Part shown: positions 33,432 to 40,179 of the stretch, piece by piece
How the letters are laid out: every line of letters begins with the position of its first letter
Numbering within the stretch: position 1 is the first letter of the stretch
IMG/VR virus record: IMGVR_UViG_3300046717_000225
Span: 1 to 64,000 of that record
DNA length: 64,000 bases
Direction: 5' to 3' (one strand)
Origin: a virus
Lineage: Duplodnaviria; Caudoviricetes
Notes under the pieces: generated by a model
Database searches by the model: none
The model's input: only the letters and a program-made list of their open reading frames with translations
What the model was told of the DNA's origin: nothing
Translations under genes and position numbers: made by a program

Positions 33432-34174
33432 CCACGGAGTACGTCGAGACCAGGATGATCCGCCTGGACGAGCTGACCCCCTTCCCGGGCAACGCCCGGC
33501 GGGGCGACCCGCACAAGCTGGCCGAGTCGCTCGAAGCCAACGGCCAGTACCGCAGCCTGATCGTGAGGCAGGCCCCCGACGGCCTGATCGTCCTCGCCGG
33601 TAACAACACCCTGCTCGCCCTGGAGGCGAAGGGCGAGACCGAGGCCCGCTGCGAGATCGTCCAGTGCGACGAGGCGACCGCCCTGCGGGTCAACCTGGTC
33701 GACAACAAGACCAACGACTCCGCCACTTACGACGACGCTGCGCGCGCGGCCCTGCTTGTGCTCCTGGACGGGGAACTGGCCGGCACCGGCTACGACGACG
33801 ACGAGGCCGACACGATCATCGCCCGGTTCGAGGAGGAGGAGATCACCCCCCTGTCCGAGCCGGCGGTCCTGGACTACAACGACGACCAGGCCGAGCGCGA
33901 GGCGCGCATCCTGAGCCACGGCGGGGAGAACAGCCGGACCATGGAGAGCCGGGGGATCCGGGACGTCATTCTCGCGATGCCCGCTGCCGAGGCGGACGAA
34001 CTCGGTCGGCTGATCATGGCCCTTCGGGCCACCTGGGGCGCGCTGCCGCAGGGAGACATCCTGCTGCGGGCGGCACGGGTGGCGTATGCGGCTCTGGAGC
34101 AGGGTGACGACCTGACCCGTGCGGACCTGGCGGCGCATGCCGACGAGCCGTACGCGCCCGAGGAGGGATCATGA
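33428..34174 (+). CDS. ParB-like N-terminal domain protein
   Basis: LTPFPGNARRGD...LAESLEANGQYRSLIV...VLAGNNTL...NLVDNK. Confidence 0.85.
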   Translation: MTTEYVETRMIRLDELTPFPGNARRGDPHKLAESLEANGQYRSLIVRQAPDGLIVLAGNNTLLALEAKGETEARCEIVQCDEATALRVNLVDNKTNDSATYDDAARAALLVLLDGELAGTGYDDDEADTIIARFEEEEITPLSEPAVLDYNDDQAEREARILSHGGENSRTMESRGIRDVILAMPAAEADELGRLIMALRATWGALPQGDILLRAARVAYAALEQGDDLTRADLAAHADEPYAPEEGS

Positions 34175-34269
34175 CCGTAATGGAGGCGCTCTTCGCGGGC
34201 ATGGGGATGGGCTGGGCAATCGCGATGGTGGGGCTCTTCGTCGGGACCTGGATCGGGCGGGACGGGTGA
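34171..34269 (+). CDS. 32-aa TM peptide
   Basis: coupled overlaps. Confidence 0.45.
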   Translation: MTVMEALFAGMGMGWAIAMVGLFVGTWIGRDG

Positions 34270-35354
34270 CCGAGCTGAAGGCGGGCATGGACTTCCGCCT
34301 CCCGGAGCACAGGAGGGAGGTTTTCCTGCGTTTCCTCCAGTGGTCGCACCAGCACAAGTCCTTCCCAGGAGGAGTGCATTACGTGCTCCCGTACCTGGCC
34401 AAGGCGCTCGAACTGGACCTTGAACAGAGGTACTGGCTGGCCTGGCTGAACGCGAACACACAGAACCCGGTGACGAGCCTGCTTCTGTTCAGGGCCGCGC
34501 CCCGGATGCAGGACCACGAGAAGGCGATCGACCTCTGGCGGACCCACTACCGGGCGCTGGACTGGGACACCGACCGCCGGTACCACAAGGCCCGGTTCGA
34601 GGACGCGGTACGCGGCTACGTCCGGGCGGTCGACTGCTCCTGCTCCGGCCCACAACACAGGTACTTCCGGGTCGGGTACGAGTGGCAGGCCTGGTGGGAC
34701 GTCGCGTTCGCCCTCCCGACCATGGGCAGGCTCAGCACCTGGAGCTATCTGGAGTACCTGCGCATTCTGCTCGGGCCGACCGTCGTTCCCGATGCGGACA
34801 CGCTGATGCTGGAGGACATCCAGGGCAGCCGGTCGCACCGCAACGGGCTCGCGCTCGTGCTCGGCCGGGACGAGTGGATCGTGGACAAGCAGCTCGGCTC
34901 CGGCCGCACGGACGCGGTCTGCACCCCGGACGTCCTGGCCGAACTCGGGTACGAGTCGAACGCCCTGTTCCTCCAGGCACGGGAGCGCATAGGCCCGGCG
35001 GCCGACCGTCTGAGCCTTGAGAGTGCGCTGTGCACGTACAAGAGCTGGCACAAGCCGAACCGCCGGTACCCGGGCGTGTACAACGACATGCTGTACAACC
35101 GGCTGGTCTCGGCCGAGAACCGGTGGGGCCAGCGGTTCGGGGTCATCTGGGACGCGCGTGCGGAGGCCCTGCCGGACAGGCTGCTCCTGGAGCGCTCGCC
35201 GTACGACCCGGGCCTGAGCCCGGTGAAGCAGAACTGGTACCTGGCTCATGGCCAGTGTCTGAATATGTCGGAGGAGTGGCCGTGCTTCCAGAACGACTTC
35301 GAGAAGACTGTCCAGAAGCACGGGTTCGGGGTCCGGGCACGGCCCTGGATCTGA
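34266..35354 (+). CDS. alpha-glutamyl/putrescinyl-thymine pyrophosphorylase (aGPT-Pplase)-like amino acid:DNA transferase
   Basis: YWLAWL, DWDTDRRYHK, MGRLSTWSYLEYL (HhH-glycosylase-like), SHRNGL, ESALCTYK. Confidence 0.82.
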   Translation: MTELKAGMDFRLPEHRREVFLRFLQWSHQHKSFPGGVHYVLPYLAKALELDLEQRYWLAWLNANTQNPVTSLLLFRAAPRMQDHEKAIDLWRTHYRALDWDTDRRYHKARFEDAVRGYVRAVDCSCSGPQHRYFRVGYEWQAWWDVAFALPTMGRLSTWSYLEYLRILLGPTVVPDADTLMLEDIQGSRSHRNGLALVLGRDEWIVDKQLGSGRTDAVCTPDVLAELGYESNALFLQARERIGPAADRLSLESALCTYKSWHKPNRRYPGVYNDMLYNRLVSAENRWGQRFGVIWDARAEALPDRLLLERSPYDPGLSPVKQNWYLAHGQCLNMSEEWPCFQNDFEKTVQKHGFGVRARPWI

Positions 35355-36211
35355 GGAACTGGCTGAGCCCGGTCGAAGATCGTGACGGCCGTCTGTACAA
35401 GCGCGAAGATCGCTGCGCCCTGCCCTCCGGCGTCAACGGGTCCAAGCTGCGCGCCTGCGATCACCTGATCCGTCAGGGAGCTGCGGCCGGCGCGCGCCGG
35501 GTCATCTCGGCCGCTTCCGTGCTCAGCCCCCAGAGCGCCATGGCAGCCATCGTCGCCGCCCGGTACGGGCTGGGCTGCACGGTCGTGCTCGGGGGCACAT
35601 CGCCCCGGACTGCCTTCACGCACCGATCGCCCGCCCTCGCCCGGGAGTACGGCGCGCAGTTCGAGTTCGTGGGCGTCGGGTACAACCCGGTGCTCCAGGC
35701 ACATGCTGAGAAGCTGGATCGCTCGGACCCGCTGGCCTACTGGCTCCAGTACGGCATCACGACCGCACCGGACGCGAGCGCCCGGGAGGTGCGCGCCTTC
35801 CACCGGATCACAGCCGACCAGTGCGCCAACCTGCCGGAGGGCATCAAGACCCTCGTCGTCCCGTTCGGCTCGGGCAACACCGGGGCGGGCGTACTCATGG
35901 GCCTGAACCAGCACGCACCACGTTCCCTGGAGAAGGTCGTCCTCGTCGCCATCGGACCGGACCGGCGCTCCTGGCTGCGGCACCGGTTCGAGTACATGGG
36001 CGTGAGCCTGCCCCGCTACCGTGTCATCGACCTGCACGGCTCGGGCTACGCCGCCTACGGCGACCGCATGCCCGGTACGGCGGACGGGATCGTGCTCCAC
36101 CCGACGTACGAGGGCAAGGTGGTCCGCTACCTGGACGCGAAAGCCCCGGACTGGTGGGTGCGCCGGGACGGCACGACCTGCCTCTGGATCGTAGGAGGAC
36201 CGCTCAAGTGA
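35282..36211 (+). CDS. fold-type II PLP enzyme (ACC deaminase/D-cysteine desulfhydrase-like)
   Basis: YKRED...GVNGSKLR (PLP lysine), VPFGSGNTGAG, LHPTYEGK; start inferred from GGAGGAG RBS. Confidence 0.82.
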   Translation: MLPERLREDCPEARVRGPGTALDLRNWLSPVEDRDGRLYKREDRCALPSGVNGSKLRACDHLIRQGAAAGARRVISAASVLSPQSAMAAIVAARYGLGCTVVLGGTSPRTAFTHRSPALAREYGAQFEFVGVGYNPVLQAHAEKLDRSDPLAYWLQYGITTAPDASAREVRAFHRITADQCANLPEGIKTLVVPFGSGNTGAGVLMGLNQHAPRSLEKVVLVAIGPDRRSWLRHRFEYMGVSLPRYRVIDLHGSGYAAYGDRMPGTADGIVLHPTYEGKVVRYLDAKAPDWWVRRDGTTCLWIVGGPLK

Positions 36212-36228
36212 CCAAGGAAGAGGAACTC

Positions 36229-36762
36229 ATGACTGAGCGTTACACACCCCAGCCCGGGGACATCGGCCTGACCACGATCTCCGGCGCCGGGGGCAAGCTC
36301 ATCCGCCTCGGCCAGTGGCTCAACGGGGACGGCTGGAAGGCCCAGCAGCATGCCTTCGTCGTCACGGAGTACCGGCAGGGCCTGGACCTGAAGAATCTCC
36401 CGAACCCGCCCTGGATCGTGGAGGCGATGCCCGGCGGGGCGCAGCACGTCAAGAACTGGCACACGGACTGCGTCTATCTGCGTTGCCCGGACGAGTACCG
36501 GGACGCGGTCGCAGCTGCGGCGCGCGGGTACGTGGGTGTGCCGTACTCGTTCCTGGACTACGGCGCGCTGGCCCTGCACCGGTTCCACATCCCCACCCCG
36601 CACCTGAAGCGGTTCATCGCCGACGGGGGCCATCAGATCTGCTCCCAGCTGGCCGATCAGTCGGCAGCCGATGGCGGCTGGAACCTGTTCCAGAACACCT
36701 GGCCCGGGGACATCACTCCTGGGGACCTGGCCCGGCTGTACCGGAAGCAGGTGTACGCATGA
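36229..36762 (+). CDS. permuted papain-like (NlpC/P60, YaeF/YiiX-type) enzyme
   Basis: PQPGDI, HAFVV, VEAMPGG, GVPYS, ICSQLA (His precedes Cys). Confidence 0.7.
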   Translation: MTERYTPQPGDIGLTTISGAGGKLIRLGQWLNGDGWKAQQHAFVVTEYRQGLDLKNLPNPPWIVEAMPGGAQHVKNWHTDCVYLRCPDEYRDAVAAAARGYVGVPYSFLDYGALALHRFHIPTPHLKRFIADGGHQICSQLADQSAADGGWNLFQNTWPGDITPGDLARLYRKQVYA

Positions 36763-37349
36763 TCAACCACATGCTCTACATCGCGGGCCCGCCTGGCGTC
36801 GGCAAGTCGACCCTCGCCCGGGAGCTGACGGCCGGCTGGGACCGGGAGCTGATGGCGCACCACCCCGTAGTGCCCCATGTCCGTCTCCGGCACCCGGTCT
36901 CCGGCCTGAAGATCGGCCTGGAACTCGGCGTGCCCCGGCCTGCCTTCCCGGGCACGGACGCGCTCAGCATGAGCATCGGTCCGGCCGCGCTCCAGTTCCT
37001 TCTCGACCGGACGAGTGCTTTCCCCTTCGCCCTCGGAGAGGGCTCACGGCTCGCCACGCGCCCGTTCCTGGGCGGGCTGGTGGCAGCGGGCGTCCGGCTC
37101 ACGTTCGTGTCTCTGAGCGCGCCACAGGAAGTCCTGGACTACCGCTGGAAGGTCCGGGGCGGGAAGCAGAACCAGAGCTGGCGCAAGGGCGCGGCCACCC
37201 GGGCGGAGCGGATGTTCGAGTGGGCGCTGCTCACGGACGGGGTCCGGACCGTCCGGTCGGAGTCCGTGGACCGTACGGACATGACCGAGATCGCCGACGA
37301 GGTCCGGGACGCGTTCCCGCTCATCGACCTGAGGGAGAGTGCAGCGTGA
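36759..37349 (+). CDS. P-loop nucleotide/hydroxymethylpyrimidine-DNA kinase
   Basis: IAGPPGVGKST, GTDALSMSI, GEGSRL. Confidence 0.82.
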   Translation: MINHMLYIAGPPGVGKSTLARELTAGWDRELMAHHPVVPHVRLRHPVSGLKIGLELGVPRPAFPGTDALSMSIGPAALQFLLDRTSAFPFALGEGSRLATRPFLGGLVAAGVRLTFVSLSAPQEVLDYRWKVRGGKQNQSWRKGAATRAERMFEWALLTDGVRTVRSESVDRTDMTEIADEVRDAFPLIDLRESAA

Positions 37350-37369
37350 TGCGGCTCAAGGTACGCTGA
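37346..37369 (+). pseudogene. orphaned original N-terminus of the TET/JBP gene (M-M-R-L-K-V-R-stop)
   Basis: coupled to the kinase stop, with RBS; parallels VSLRIR, which precedes SRISKEE at 37790-37807. Confidence 0.55.
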
Positions 37370-37374
37370 CCCTT

Positions 37375-37794
37375 ATGACAAAGGTGATCTATGGTCTCGT
37401 TGACCATGAGGGCGTTACCCGGTACGTAGGGCAGTCGGGGGAGGCGTTCTCTCGGCTGGAGTACCACATATCCAGATCCTTCCGGGAACGGAAGGAGGAC
37501 CGGACCCCAGCACAGCAGTGGGTCTGGGACCAGATCGTGGTCCATCGGCACGTCCCGGGGATAGATCTCCTGGAGTTTCCGGAGGATGCAGAGGCCAATG
37601 CTGCGGAGCGCCGGTGGATAGAGCATTACGGTTATGAGCAGCTCACCAACACCTCGTACGCGGAACGCTTGGCCAAGGCACGTCCCAAGCTGAGTGCGGC
37701 CACACTGGGCCGGAAGGACAGTGCAGCAACCAAGAAGCGCAAGAGCGAGAGTGCAAAACGAGCCTGGGAGAAGCGCCGTGCAGCCGATCGTTAG
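37375..37794 (+). mobile_element. GIY-YIG homing endonuclease gene
   Basis: VIYGL...RYVGQS...RLEYH...EANAAERRWI, NUMOD3-like tail; lower GC3. Confidence 0.85.
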
Positions 37795-38683
37795 TCTGAG
37801 AATCAGGTCGCGCATCTCCAAGGAGGAGCTGGACCTCAAGGTCGGCAAGGTGATCGGCGACGACGCGTACAACGTCCTGCTCACCGGGCCGACCCGGGTT
37901 TATATGCCGAACGGGAAGATCCTGTGCGTGTACCTGCCCGGGGCGCTCAAGGACCACGTGACCGAGGAGCAGTACGCGGTGCTGCACTCGCTGCGCTCGC
38001 ACAAGACCGACTCCCGGGGGCAGGCCTCAGGCAGTCAAAGTGTGGTGAGAACGGGCGAGCAGCGGACGCGGAGATTCCTGCCCGTCAGCTCCAGCATCCT
38101 TGGCTCCTTCGACCCCAATCTCACGTTCAAGTTCTGCCGCACCACGGCCTGGACCGGGCGTCACGTTCCGGAGTGGGACACGCTGCGCCCCCTGCTCCAG
38201 CAGGTCGCCGGTCACATGGAGCAGCAGGTGCCCGACCGGTACGCGGCGCAGATGGCCGAGATCGGCCGGACGCATCCGGACTGGGTCGTGCCCGGTACTC
38301 CGTTCACTACCCTCACGGTCAACAACACGTACCCGACCGGCGTGCACACCGACAAGGGCGACCTGGACGCCGGCTTCAGCACGATCGCCGTGCTGCGCCG
38401 GGGGAGCTACACCGGGGGCCGGTTCGTGTTCCCGGAGTTCCGGGTCGCGGCCGACCTCCAGGACGGGGACCTCATCCTCATGGACGCGCACCAGTGGCAT
38501 GGGAACACGGCCCTGGTCTGCGCCTGCGGCGAGAAGAGGGCCAAGATGTGTGAGGCCTGCGGGGCCGAGAGGATCAGCCTGGTCTCGTACATGCGCACGG
38601 CCATGACCAGCTGCGGAAGCGAAGAGGAGGAGAACCAACGCGCCGTGGAATACCGTGAAAGGACCAAGGGAGTGATCAGGTAG
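37778..38683 (+). CDS. TET/JBP-family 2OG-Fe(II) dioxygenase
   Basis: PFTTLTVNNT, GVHTDKGD (HxD), WHGNT, RISLVSY. Confidence 0.85.
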   Translation: MQPIVSLRIRSRISKEELDLKVGKVIGDDAYNVLLTGPTRVYMPNGKILCVYLPGALKDHVTEEQYAVLHSLRSHKTDSRGQASGSQSVVRTGEQRTRRFLPVSSSILGSFDPNLTFKFCRTTAWTGRHVPEWDTLRPLLQQVAGHMEQQVPDRYAAQMAEIGRTHPDWVVPGTPFTTLTVNNTYPTGVHTDKGDLDAGFSTIAVLRRGSYTGGRFVFPEFRVAADLQDGDLILMDAHQWHGNTALVCACGEKRAKMCEACGAERISLVSYMRTAMTSCGSEEEENQRAVEYRERTKGVIR

Positions 38684-38704
38684 CGTCCACGGAGGGTAAG
38701 GATC

Positions 38705-39334
38705 ATGGACCCGCACAGTGCCGGTGATCACGCCTCGGTCGAGGCCCGCCGCTGGAAGGCCGTCACCCTGGCCAACCGGGGCCTCACGCACAAGATGATC
38801 GCGACGGAGATGGCCGAGGAGTACCGGCGGCACAACCCCCGGCTGACCCTGGTCCAGATCGAGAGCCACGTCGGAGTGGACATCACCCGGGCGCTCAAGG
38901 ACTACCGCAAACGCGCGGATCAGGCCATCGAGGAGAAGCTGACCGCAGCCTCGCTGCGCCTCAACGAGATCCGCCGGCGCCTGTTCGCGGTCATCGTGGG
39001 CAATCATTACGTGCTGCACTCGGGGGAGATCGTCAAGGACGGGGACGGCCGCCCCCTCCAGGACGCCGCTCCCGTGCTCGCAGCCCTGGCGCAGCTCCGC
39101 GCCCTGGAGGAGCAGCAGGCCCGGATGGAGGGCACTAACGCCCGGGAGAAGATCGACATAGCTCTCGGCCGCCGGGTGGACGAGGAGGCGATGGACGTCA
39201 CAGAGGCGATCCTCGCCGCGTTCGCCGCCCTGCCCGAGCTGGAGCCTGCCCTGCGTCAGCGGGCGCTGGAAGCCGCCGGCGCCCACCTGCGTACCATCGA
39301 GGGCGAAGTCATCGCTGACGTGGAGGAACCGTGA
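38705..39334 (+). CDS. terminase small subunit-like HTH protein
   Basis: AVTLANRGLTHKMIA, ALAQLRALEEQQARMEG. Confidence 0.65.
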   Translation: MDPHSAGDHASVEARRWKAVTLANRGLTHKMIATEMAEEYRRHNPRLTLVQIESHVGVDITRALKDYRKRADQAIEEKLTAASLRLNEIRRRLFAVIVGNHYVLHSGEIVKDGDGRPLQDAAPVLAALAQLRALEEQQARMEGTNAREKIDIALGRRVDEEAMDVTEAILAAFAALPELEPALRQRALEAAGAHLRTIEGEVIADVEEP

Positions 39335-40179
39335 CCGTCACCCCGTACCCGCTCGGCCGTGTGCAGTACCACGACCCCCGTAACGCACAGCCGCAATACG
39401 CGGTAGCTGAGCTTCCCCGTCGCGCGCTCAAGTCCGTGGACTGGCACCGTCGTGCTCCGATCTTCGATCAGGGCCAGCTCGGGTCCTGCGTCGGCAACGC
39501 GGCCGTCGGCTGGGTCGGTACGGACAATGTGACCCGACAGGGGCGCACGTTTGTCGACGTCAGTTCAACCACAGCCATGGCAGCCTTGACCGGGGATGCT
39601 CGCCTGGATACTGGATCCGGTCCAAAGGTATTGGCCACGGTCCCCGTGGACGAGGCACTAGCGGTCCGTGACTACGCCTTCGCCACCGGCCTGGACACCT
39701 TCAGCGGTACCTACCCGCCCGACGACACCGGTACGGACGGCCCCTCCGGCGCGAAGGCTCTGGTCAAACTGGGCCTGGCCGGGAAGTACACGCACGCGTT
39801 CTCCCTCGCCGCGCTCCAGGCCGCGCTCCAGCTCGGTCCGGTCATGTGGGGCACGGTCTGGTACAACTCGATGTTCGACCTGAACTCGTACAACCACCTC
39901 GTGGTGGACGAGAATTCGGGCGTTGCTGGCGGCCACGAGCTGCTCATCGTCGGGTGGGACACGGCCACGGACGTCTACAAGATCGCGAACTCGTGGGGAA
40001 CCAGTTGGGGAGAGGCCGGGTACTGCTACGTCAACACTCCGGACCTGACCTACCTCGCGGCACAGGGCGGGGACTTCACGCAGCCGGTCGATCTCGCCGC
40101 TCCGGCCCCGTCCGTTGTCACGGCTCAGAAGTTCTACGATCAGATCAAGGCCTCCGCCACGGCAGGAGGGCTGAAGTGA
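39331..40179 (+). CDS. papain-family (C1) cysteine peptidase
   Basis: DQGQLGSCVG, GGHELLIVGWD, ANSWGTSWG. Confidence 0.88.
   Translation: MTVTPYPLGRVQYHDPRNAQPQYAVAELPRRALKSVDWHRRAPIFDQGQLGSCVGNAAVGWVGTDNVTRQGRTFVDVSSTTAMAALTGDARLDTGSGPKVLATVPVDEALAVRDYAFATGLDTFSGTYPPDDTGTDGPSGAKALVKLGLAGKYTHAFSLAALQAALQLGPVMWGTVWYNSMFDLNSYNHLVVDENSGVAGGHELLIVGWDTATDVYKIANSWGTSWGEAGYCYVNTPDLTYLAAQGGDFTQPVDLAAPAPSVVTAQKFYDQIKASATAGGLK

What the first reader, a model, noticed from the sequence alone, without database searches (positions are those of the whole stretch)
37346..37830. GIY-YIG endonuclease inserted in codon 7 of the TET/JBP gene, supplying a replacement N-terminus
Seen: the kinase stop is coupled to a mini-ORF MMRLKVR-stop. 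After the endonuclease, the dioxygenase frame reads VQPIVSLRIR|SRISKEEL, and the SLRIR codons are AT-rich (GTT AGT CTG AGA ATC AGG) and overlap the endonuclease stop. LKVR and LRIR are parallel, so the original gene probably read MRLKVR-SRISKEEL. Inference: an intron-less homing element split the gene and rebuilt its start from its own 3' end, avoiding inactivation without splicing. Ribosomal bypass is a less likely alternative. An AT-rich recoded patch at about 38030-38130 could be the immunised target site.
Basis: partly seen in the sequence, partly recalled or inferred. Interest (0 to 1): 0.72.

Follow-up and report, generated by a model that had tools for sequence, protein, structure and literature searches.

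The report
Homing endonuclease lodged in TET gene start
A small selfish nuclease gene sits in the first codons of a phage DNA-modification (TET/JBP) gene, takes over that gene's start site and hands it a new one; related nucleases sit at the same place in other phages.

Summary
The window holds a P-loop kinase (36759-37349), a 7-codon mini-ORF coupled to the kinase stop (37346-37369), an intact 139-aa GIY-YIG gene (37375-37794), and a complete Tet_JBP gene (37778-38683). The Tet_JBP Shine-Dalgarno, GTG start and first three codons lie inside the endonuclease 3' end.

At least 96 of 119 uninterrupted homologues begin M-I-S-[IVL]-R-[VLI]-R-S-R. So the codons after the endonuclease are the true native N-terminus, heavily recoded: 10 of 21 nt differ from the closest relative, against 12% elsewhere.

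New here:
- The endonuclease's nearest relatives (27-56% identity) also sit directly 5' of Tet_JBP. This holds in four other locus groups, behind four different upstream genes.
- One HEG+/HEG- pair with 92-96% identical flanks shows the endonuclease using the very GTG that starts TET in the empty allele.
- In three of five loci, the codons left of the endonuclease resemble the TET N-terminus on its right (window P=0.002; Fisher P=7e-5).

I read it as a TET-5'-specific free-standing homing endonuclease family. Its junction architecture is unusual. Splicing and ribosomal bypass are not needed. The 38030-38130 patch is a hypervariable protein loop, not a recoded target.

The parts
36759..37349 (+). 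P-loop nucleotide kinase gene (196 aa). Its stop TGA 37347-37349 overlaps the next start.
   Evidence: PF18751 Ploopntkinase3, E=1.4e-25. The 3' end is nearly identical to relative L004 up to the stop.
37331..37339 (+). Shine-Dalgarno-like GAGGGAGAG, 6 nt before GTG 37346. This is the native initiation site of whatever gene follows the kinase.
   Evidence: Relative L004 has the same sequence and spacing before the gene that follows its kinase. L010 has the same start position but a weaker, A-rich stretch there.
37346..37369 (+). Mini-ORF of 7 codons plus TGA. It starts at the position where TET starts in endonuclease-free relatives and ends 5 nt before the endonuclease ATG. Possibly a degenerate remnant or duplicate of TET codons 1-7, and a translational-coupling bridge to the endonuclease.
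   Evidence: Similarity to the TET N-terminus gives P=0.0018 in the window and Fisher P=7e-5 over five HEG+ loci. DNA-level P is 0.01-0.08.
37375..37794 (+). Free-standing GIY-YIG homing endonuclease gene (139 aa), intact, with lower GC than its flanks.
   Evidence: 15 of 18 homologues hit PF01541 and 8 hit NUMOD3. Y6, Y17, R27, H31, E78 and N92 are invariant. The AF2 model has pLDDT 90.9, and its best PDB folds are GIY-YIG domains of UvrC and I-TevI. GC is 0.605 against 0.66-0.71 in the flanks.
37766..37770 (+). Shine-Dalgarno GGGAG for the dioxygenase, inside the endonuclease coding sequence, 7 nt before GTG 37778.
   Evidence: The same motif and spacing occur in the 56%-identical endonuclease of L070.
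37778..37794 (+). 17-nt overlap of the endonuclease 3' end with the dioxygenase 5' end. It holds the new GTG start, three added codons (Q-P plus the initiator) and the endonuclease stop TAG, which is built across native TET codons 2-3.
   Evidence: The stop (TGA) is at the homologous place in L070.
37787..37807 (+). Recoded native TET codons 1-7. The former start is now ATC and codon 2 is GTT. Candidate endonuclease target tract, made uncleavable or co-converted.
   Evidence: 10 of 21 nt differ from L004, against 12% over the whole gene (P=3e-5). In L070/L081 the same tract differs at all five third positions of codons 3-7 (P=0.002).
37778..38683 (+). Complete Tet_JBP 2OG-Fe(II) dioxygenase gene (301 aa).
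   Evidence: PF12851, E=7.5e-18. 1400 homologues were found and the closest is 84% identical.

Best explanation
The 139-aa protein is a free-standing GIY-YIG homing endonuclease. It belongs to a small family specialised on the 5' end of phage TET/JBP dioxygenase genes.

In these compact operons the upstream stop overlaps the TET start, so there is no intergenic space. The element therefore sits in the first codons of the TET ORF.

- It takes over the native initiation site. In the relatives this site starts the endonuclease itself. In this window it starts the 7-codon mini-ORF, which ends 5 nt before the endonuclease ATG and probably feeds it ribosomes by termination-reinitiation.
- Its 3' end carries a replacement initiation region for TET: GGGAG, GTG 37778 and three extra codons.
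- Native TET codons 1-7 (37787-37807) remain but are recoded. This reflects either target-site immunity or a short co-conversion tract from the donor.

TET is thus made as an ordinary full-length protein three residues longer than in relatives. No splicing or bypass is involved.

Shown: the gene order, the junction anatomy, the family association with TET, the HEG+/HEG- polymorphism and the recoded tract.

Inferred: nuclease activity and target, the homing mechanism, the coupling role of the mini-ORF, and the mini-ORF as a remnant of TET codons 1-7 (about 55%).
For: (1) GIY-YIG identity rests.

(2) The closest relatives sit directly upstream of Tet_JBP behind different upstream genes. P0202 (56% identical) follows a radical SAM gene in L070-73. 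P0122 follows a TAGT-like gene in L067. P0123 follows an HNH-repeat gene in L068. P0203 follows a Ploopntkinase3 gene in L074.

(3) None of 65 TET loci fetched by the TET query carries a detectable relative of the window endonuclease (tblastn, E<=1e-3). Relatives there show a direct stop/start overlap (L010, L003, L015, L076, L077, L081, L083) or other small ORFs in the same slot (L004, L019).

(4) In the L070 (HEG+) / L081 (HEG-) pair the flanks are 92-96% identical. The endonuclease begins at the same GTG that begins TET in L081, and TET restarts at a GTG inside the endonuclease 3' end.

(5) Substitutions cluster in native codons 1-7 in two independent pairs (P=3e-5 and P=0.002).

(6) The 3' junction DNA (Shine-Dalgarno, GTG, stop across codons 2-3) is homologous between the window and L070.

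(7) The left copy resembles the TET N-terminus in the window, L068 and L067 (Fisher P=7e-5).

(8) Overlap with neighbours and translational coupling are documented for T4 free-standing endonucleases (PMC2988022).
Against: - No biochemical evidence for cleavage or homing is available.
- The window protein itself hits Pfam GIY-YIG only at E=0.03.
- Only five HEG+ locus groups were found, and their contexts were chosen by similarity to the query.
- The left-copy test was designed after seeing the data, and two of five loci (L070, L074) show nothing.
- The mini-ORF differs from the expected native codons at 9 of 21 nt, although the adjacent kinase 3' end is about 95% identical to L004. Neutral decay of a recent remnant does not explain this.
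- The recoded tract in L070 is close to a natural HEG-free allele (L083). It may therefore be co-conversion rather than immunity.
Confidence: 0.65

Rival explanations
1. Plain boundary insertion. The endonuclease cassette (about 37350-37786) landed exactly between the kinase stop and the TET start. The mini-ORF is donor-derived or random leader sequence, and its likeness to the TET N-terminus is chance. At most it serves translational coupling.
For: - In L070/L081 nothing of TET beyond the start codon remains left of the endonuclease.
- L070 and L074 show no left copy.
- Mini-ORF similarity at DNA level is marginal (P=0.01-0.08), and the PSSM gives P=0.025.
- The slot after the kinase stop also holds unrelated small ORFs in L004 and L019.
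Against: - The fixed-register similarity in the window gives P=0.0018.
- Independent parallels exist. The L068 endonuclease starts with the five native TET residues M-I-D-I-R, and L067 shows a weaker parallel. The combined P is 7e-5.
- The mini-ORF has exactly the seven codons that are recoded on the right side.
Confidence: 0.22
2. The ancestral gene read mini-ORF residues plus S-R-I-S-K-E-E-L. The element inserted after codon 7 and invented a functional substitute N-terminus from its own 3' end.
For: The mini-ORF and the recoded tract both span seven codons, and both end where high identity to L004 resumes.
Against: - None of the 119 other listed homologues starts like the mini-ORF. At least 96 start M-I-S-[IVL]-R-[VLI]-R-S-R.
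- The post-endonuclease codons carry the invariant S3, R5 and R7. They derive from a TET gene, not from endonuclease sequence.
Confidence: 0.06
3. The GIY-YIG protein is not selfish. It is a working partner of the TET-initiated DNA hypermodification pathway. For example, it could degrade unmodified host DNA, as T4 EndoII (a GIY-YIG enzyme) does, and it is kept next to TET for co-expression.
For: - It is always adjacent to Tet_JBP whatever lies upstream.
- The best sequence-profile hit among solved structures is a 5hmC-specific GIY-YIG restriction enzyme (9u75).
- T4 EndoII is among the fold hits.
Against: - None of 65 TET loci fetched by the TET query carries a detectable relative of it.
- It is present or absent between 92-96% identical genomes.
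- Its GC is lower than that of its neighbours.
- Homologues carry NUMOD3 and are named group I intron endonucleases by sources.
- The recoded target-like tract next to it is a homing signature.
Confidence: 0.06
4. The endonuclease lies in a group I intron, or is skipped by ribosomal bypassing, so that the mini-ORF is joined to the rest of TET.
For: None beyond the left/right parallel.
Against: - Rfam finds no family in 37000-38200 at E<=1.
- 420 of the roughly 437 inserted nt are ORF, which leaves no room for a ribozyme.
- Local RNA folds are no better than shuffles.
- TET has its own Shine-Dalgarno, its own start and a full native N-terminus.
Confidence: 0.01

Closest known systems
T4 Seg-type free-standing GIY-YIG homing endonucleases (SegA-G), 'intronless homing'
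   Same: - A GIY-YIG catalytic domain plus a short DNA-binding tail.
- No intron or intein.
- A position beside a conserved target gene.
- Sporadic presence among close relatives.
- Flanking-marker conversion.
- ORF overlap with neighbours, and weak or absent own initiation regions with suspected translational coupling (PMC2988022).
   Different: - T4 seg genes occupy intergenic positions. Here the element uses the target gene's own start codon position and re-supplies the target's Shine-Dalgarno, start and first residues from its 3' end.
- The target (phage Tet_JBP) and host group (high-GC actinophage-like viruses) are new.
- The protein is much smaller: 139 aa, against 245 aa for I-TevI (from memory).
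mobE insertion in nrdA of Aeromonas phage Aeh1 ('genes-in-pieces')
   Same: A free-standing endonuclease inserted inside a coding region without an intron. Sequences created by the insertion become new terminal residues of the host protein, and function is retained (PMC3045599).
   Different: In Aeh1 the gene is split into two large polypeptides that must reassemble. Here the left piece is at most seven codons and the right piece is a complete enzyme, so no reassembly is needed.
I-TevI operator (autorepression by a degenerate homing-site copy upstream of the endonuclease ORF)
   Same: A degenerate copy of the target sequence lies just upstream of the endonuclease ORF. For I-TevI this copy has 15/20 nt identity to the homing site (PMC2988022).
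   Different: Here the left copy shares only about 12 of 21 nt with native TET codons. It overlaps a translated mini-ORF rather than a mapped promoter. Binding has not been tested.

Membership tests
GIY-YIG nuclease superfamily | GIY...YIG motifs with conserved Arg, His, Glu and Asn of the single active site | tested here: met
   Y6, Y17, R27, H31, E78 and N92 are invariant in an 18-sequence alignment. 15 of 18 members hit PF01541. The window protein alone scores only E=0.03. The correspondence to I-TevI catalytic residues is from memory.
GIY-YIG nuclease superfamily | Three-stranded sheet flanked by helices (GIY-YIG fold) | tested here: met
   The AF2 model has pLDDT 90.9. The top Foldseek PDB hits are all GIY-YIG domains: UvrC N-terminal domain (prob 1.0) and I-TevI catalytic domain (TM 0.72 by target, rmsd 2.7 A). 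E-values are weak, best 5.8e-3.
Free-standing homing endonuclease gene (Seg-like) | Presence/absence polymorphism at one site between otherwise near-identical genomes | tested here: met
   L070-73 (HEG+) and L081 (HEG-) have 92-96% identical flanks. For the window itself the closest relative, L004 (88% nt identity in TET), lacks it.
Free-standing homing endonuclease gene (Seg-like) | Constant association with one target gene, independent of the other flank | tested here: met
   Five locus groups are all directly 5' of Tet_JBP, behind four different upstream genes. A more distant homologue, P0125, is elsewhere.
Free-standing homing endonuclease gene (Seg-like) | Clustered substitutions or co-conversion next to the insertion | tested here: met
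   Native TET codons 1-7 show P=3e-5 (window vs L004) and P=0.002 (L072 vs L081).
Free-standing homing endonuclease gene (Seg-like) | Site-specific cleavage of the empty allele and biased inheritance | not testable with these tools
   This needs enzyme assays and phage crosses.
Free-standing homing endonuclease gene (Seg-like) | C-terminal DNA-binding module (NUMOD3, HTH or similar) | tested here: inconclusive
   8 of 18 homologues carry NUMOD3. The window protein has a basic helical tail (residues 95-138) but no Pfam hit of its own.
Group I intron-encoded endonuclease | Ribozyme core around the ORF | tested here: not met
   Rfam gives no match at E<=1. The insert is essentially ORF only.
Genes-in-pieces (split host gene) | Two substantial host-gene fragments, both needed for function | tested here: not met
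   The left piece is at most 7 codons. The right ORF aligns to full-length homologues from residue 1.
Tet_JBP 2OG-Fe(II) dioxygenase (host gene) | PF12851 domain over the catalytic core, full length | tested here: met
   E=7.5e-18, above the curated cut-off. The protein is 301 aa, against 297-298 aa in most homologues.

The most novel reading that the evidence does not exclude
The element is a self-contained, intron-less and intein-less cassette that lives inside the TET ORF. It lies between two imperfect copies of TET's first 5-7 codons.

- The right copy plus a spare Shine-Dalgarno and start repairs the host gene.
- The left copy gives the endonuclease the host's initiation site. It may also act as a short left homology arm or as an I-TevI-like operator.

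With this layout the element could home into any TET gene whatever lies upstream. The end of the left copy and of the recoded tract (codon 7/8) would mark the cleavage or crossover point.
Probability: 0.3. Interest if true: 0.68.

Novelty: new variant of a known kind. Interest (0 to 1): 0.5.

Why it matters
It shows how a selfish nuclease can invade an operon that has no intergenic space without killing its target. It captures the target's start site and carries a spare one.

It also defines a previously undescribed endonuclease family tied to phage TET/JBP DNA-hypermodification genes. I found no paper on it in two full-text searches.

The finding gives concrete substrates for testing target-site immunity: an empty allele, a recoded right copy and a degenerate left copy. 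It also flags the invariant R-x-R N-terminus of these dioxygenases as functionally constrained. Practically, gene callers will mis-start TET or miss the mini-ORF at such junctions.

Tried and rejected
- blastn of 36760-38690 against the phage collection found no match.
- tblastn of TET against phages found only distant hits below 35% identity, which were of no use for junctions.
- PHROGs and Pfam on the endonuclease alone gave nothing below E=0.03.
- The word-indexed search with the endonuclease alone found only itself.
- The search for related loci with the four-member endonuclease alignment confirmed no locus in viral contigs and gave an error in metagenome contigs.
- A sample of 401 genomes of the family of a Streptomyces genome gave three weak GIY-YIG hits, none near TET.
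The same-sample search for an endonuclease-free sibling could therefore not be done.
- The L004 40-aa slot ORF and the L019 slot showed no significant DNA similarity to the window insert.
- RNA folds around both initiation regions were no better than shuffles.
- The extended N-terminal types (x-x-P-L-V-D) turned out to occur in endonuclease-free loci L076, L077 and L080 too. I therefore dropped them as a 'scar' marker.
- My first kinase translations used the wrong frame (36761). The empty Pfam results for that protein are void. One search corrects this.
Full report
**What is there**

The window is the first 64 kb of a 79,319-bp virus record with direct terminal repeats. It is high-GC and carries a DNA-hypermodification operon:
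- ADDT amino-acid:DNA transferase (34119-35354);
- a PLP enzyme (35363-36211);
- a P-loop nucleotide kinase (36759-37349; PF18751, E=1.4e-25);
- a Tet_JBP dioxygenase.

- The kinase TGA (37347-37349) overlaps GTG 37346 and ATG 37349 of a seven-codon mini-ORF that stops at 37367-37369.
- Five nucleotides later, ATG 37375 opens a 139-codon ORF that ends at TAG 37792-37794.
- The dioxygenase frame is open from GTG 37778, 7 nt after GGGAG (37766-37770).
- The endonuclease and the dioxygenase therefore overlap by 17 nt.
- GC drops from about 0.72 to 0.58-0.61 across 37320-37860.

**The inserted gene is a GIY-YIG endonuclease**

On its own the protein scores only E=0.03 against Pfam GIY-YIG, and the word-indexed search found nothing but itself. 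An exhaustive HMMER scan found 81 relatives.
- In an 18-sequence alignment Y6, Y17, R27, H31, E78 and N92 are invariant.
- 15 of 18 members hit PF01541 and 8 hit NUMOD3.
- The profile hits solved GIY-YIG proteins.
- An AlphaFold model (pLDDT 90.9) has GIY-YIG domains of UvrC, I-TevI and T4 EndoII as its best PDB matches.

The ORF is intact and has the same length as its closest relatives.

**What uninterrupted homologues look like**

The dioxygenase has 1400 homologues, the nearest 84% identical. Of the 119 other listed homologues, at least 96 begin M-I-S-[IVL]-R-[VLI]-R-S-R, with S/T3, R5 and R7 invariant.

The window's I-V-S-L-R-I-R-S-R is therefore the native N-terminus in register. Its former start codon is now ATC and codon 2 is GTT. 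The start has moved three codons upstream into the endonuclease.

None of 65 TET loci fetched from genome and viral contigs carries a detectable relative of the window endonuclease (tblastn, E<=1e-3).
- In L010, L003, L015, L076, L077, L081 and L083 the upstream stop overlaps the TET start (ATGA or GTGA).
- In L004, the closest relative, the slot holds an unrelated 40-aa ORF. In L019 and L022 it holds a 37-aa ORF.

The kinase 3' end, the Shine-Dalgarno and the start position are conserved between the window and L004 up to the TGA. Similarity ends there.

**The endonuclease family is tied to TET**

The nearest relatives of the endonuclease all sit directly 5' of Tet_JBP:

| Relative | Identity | Loci | Upstream gene |
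|---|---|---|---|
| P0202 | 56% | L070-73 | radical SAM/SPASM |
| P0122 | 37-39% | L067 | TAGT-like |
| P0123 | 31-33% | L068 and an ENA contig | HNH-repeat |
| P0203 | 27% | L074-75 | Ploopntkinase3 |

A more distant homologue, P0125, sits in another context. A constant right neighbour with a variable left neighbour is what a target-specific homing endonuclease predicts.

**A clean filled/empty pair**

The TET of L070/L072 is 96% identical to that of endonuclease-free L081, and the radical SAM flanks are 87-96% identical.
- The two alleles are collinear through the radical SAM stop and the overlapping GTG.
- In L081 that GTG starts TET. In L070 it starts the endonuclease.
- At the 3' end of the L070 endonuclease, the same GGGAG-N7-GTG arrangement as in the window restarts TET.
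- The L070 TET has four added residues and the same codon-2 GTT, which helps form the endonuclease stop.

In that pair the insertion is right after the start codon, not at codon 7.

**Recoded tract**
- Window against L004: 10 of 21 nt differ in native codons 1-7, against 12% over the gene. The next 60 codons differ at 0-0.3 nt per codon (P=3e-5).
- L072 against L081: the first five differences are the third positions of codons 3-7, and the next difference is 42 nt further on (P=0.002).

Both tracts end at codon 7/8. This is a homing signature. It could be target-site immunity or a short co-conversion tract from a donor. The L070 tract is close to another empty allele, L083, which favours co-conversion there.

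The patch at 38030-38130 is different in kind. It is a protein-level hypervariable loop with indels in all comparisons.

**Is the mini-ORF a piece of TET?**

It starts exactly where TET starts in empty alleles and has seven codons, the same span as the recoded tract.
- Against the same-locus TET residues: P=0.0018.
- Against the family: BLOSUM P=0.0015, PSSM P=0.025.
- At DNA level: P=0.01-0.08.

Relatives give independent support. The L068 endonuclease begins with the five native TET residues M-I-D-I-R (P=0.0015). The first five residues of the L067 endonuclease mirror the first five of its TET (P=0.005). L070 and L074 show nothing. Fisher's combination over all five loci gives 7e-5. That test was designed after seeing the data.

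My working inference is as follows. When the element enters a genome whose upstream gene differs from the donor's, the right side is repaired by homology within TET. The left side is joined illegitimately near the break, leaving a variable stub of TET codons (1, 5 or 7) that can be fused to or coupled with the endonuclease.

One point stays unexplained. The window stub differs from expected native codons at 9 of 21 nt, although the adjoining kinase end is about 95% identical to L004. Selection against self-cleavage, or an operator role like that of the I-TevI homing-site copy (PMC2988022), are possibilities and not findings.

**What is excluded**
- There is no Rfam family in 37000-38200.
- There is no room for a ribozyme.
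- There is no unusual RNA structure.
- TET has a complete ORF with its own initiation region, so splicing and bypass are unnecessary.

A functional, EndoII-like role for the nuclease is a minor rival. Its sporadic distribution, its lower GC and the junction signatures argue against it.

**Comparison and verdict**

The element works like T4 Seg endonucleases (intronless homing; overlap and coupling with neighbours are known). It shares with Aeh1 mobE/nrdA the creation of new terminal residues by the insertion. It differs in three ways: it captures the target's start codon position, it carries a spare initiation region, and it targets TET/JBP.

Two full-text searches found no description of this association. 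I rate it a new variant of a known kind, of moderate interest.

Noticed in passing
L004:2881-3003; L019:2820-2935: In endonuclease-free relatives the same slot between the kinase stop and the TET start holds unrelated small ORFs. L004 has a 40-aa very basic peptide and L019/L022 a 37-aa Cys-rich peptide. The junction is a general insertion hot spot.
   Followed up: partly
L068:1037-2082 (and the ENA contig): Two nuclease-like genes sit in tandem before Tet_JBP. A 199-aa HNH_repeat protein is followed directly by the GIY-YIG gene, downstream of a TAGT glycosyltransferase. This may be a stacked pair of homing elements.
   Followed up: no
window 37787-37813 and homologues: The extreme N-terminus of these Tet_JBP proteins is strongly conserved: S/T3, R5 and R7 are invariant in 96 sequences, followed by [ST]-R. 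This suggests a functional role for a basic N-terminal tail. It would explain why every endonuclease-bearing allele preserves it.
   Followed up: no
window 34119-40179: Operon context: ADDT amino-acid:DNA transferase, PLP-dependent enzyme, an unassigned 177-aa protein (36229-36759), Ploopntkinase3 and Tet_JBP. Two genes downstream lies a papain-family Peptidase_C1 (39331-40179; PF00112, E=1.1e-13).
   Followed up: partly
L074:3447-3490: In this endonuclease-bearing locus TET starts with M-I, then five extra residues, before the conserved D-I-R-I-R. This is another remodelled N-terminus, built differently from the window's.
   Followed up: no
PDB 9u75/9u7u: The closest solved protein by sequence profile is a GIY-YIG 5hmC-specific restriction endonuclease (PD-T4-3). 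This links the GIY-YIG branch to modified-DNA biology on the defence side.
   Followed up: no
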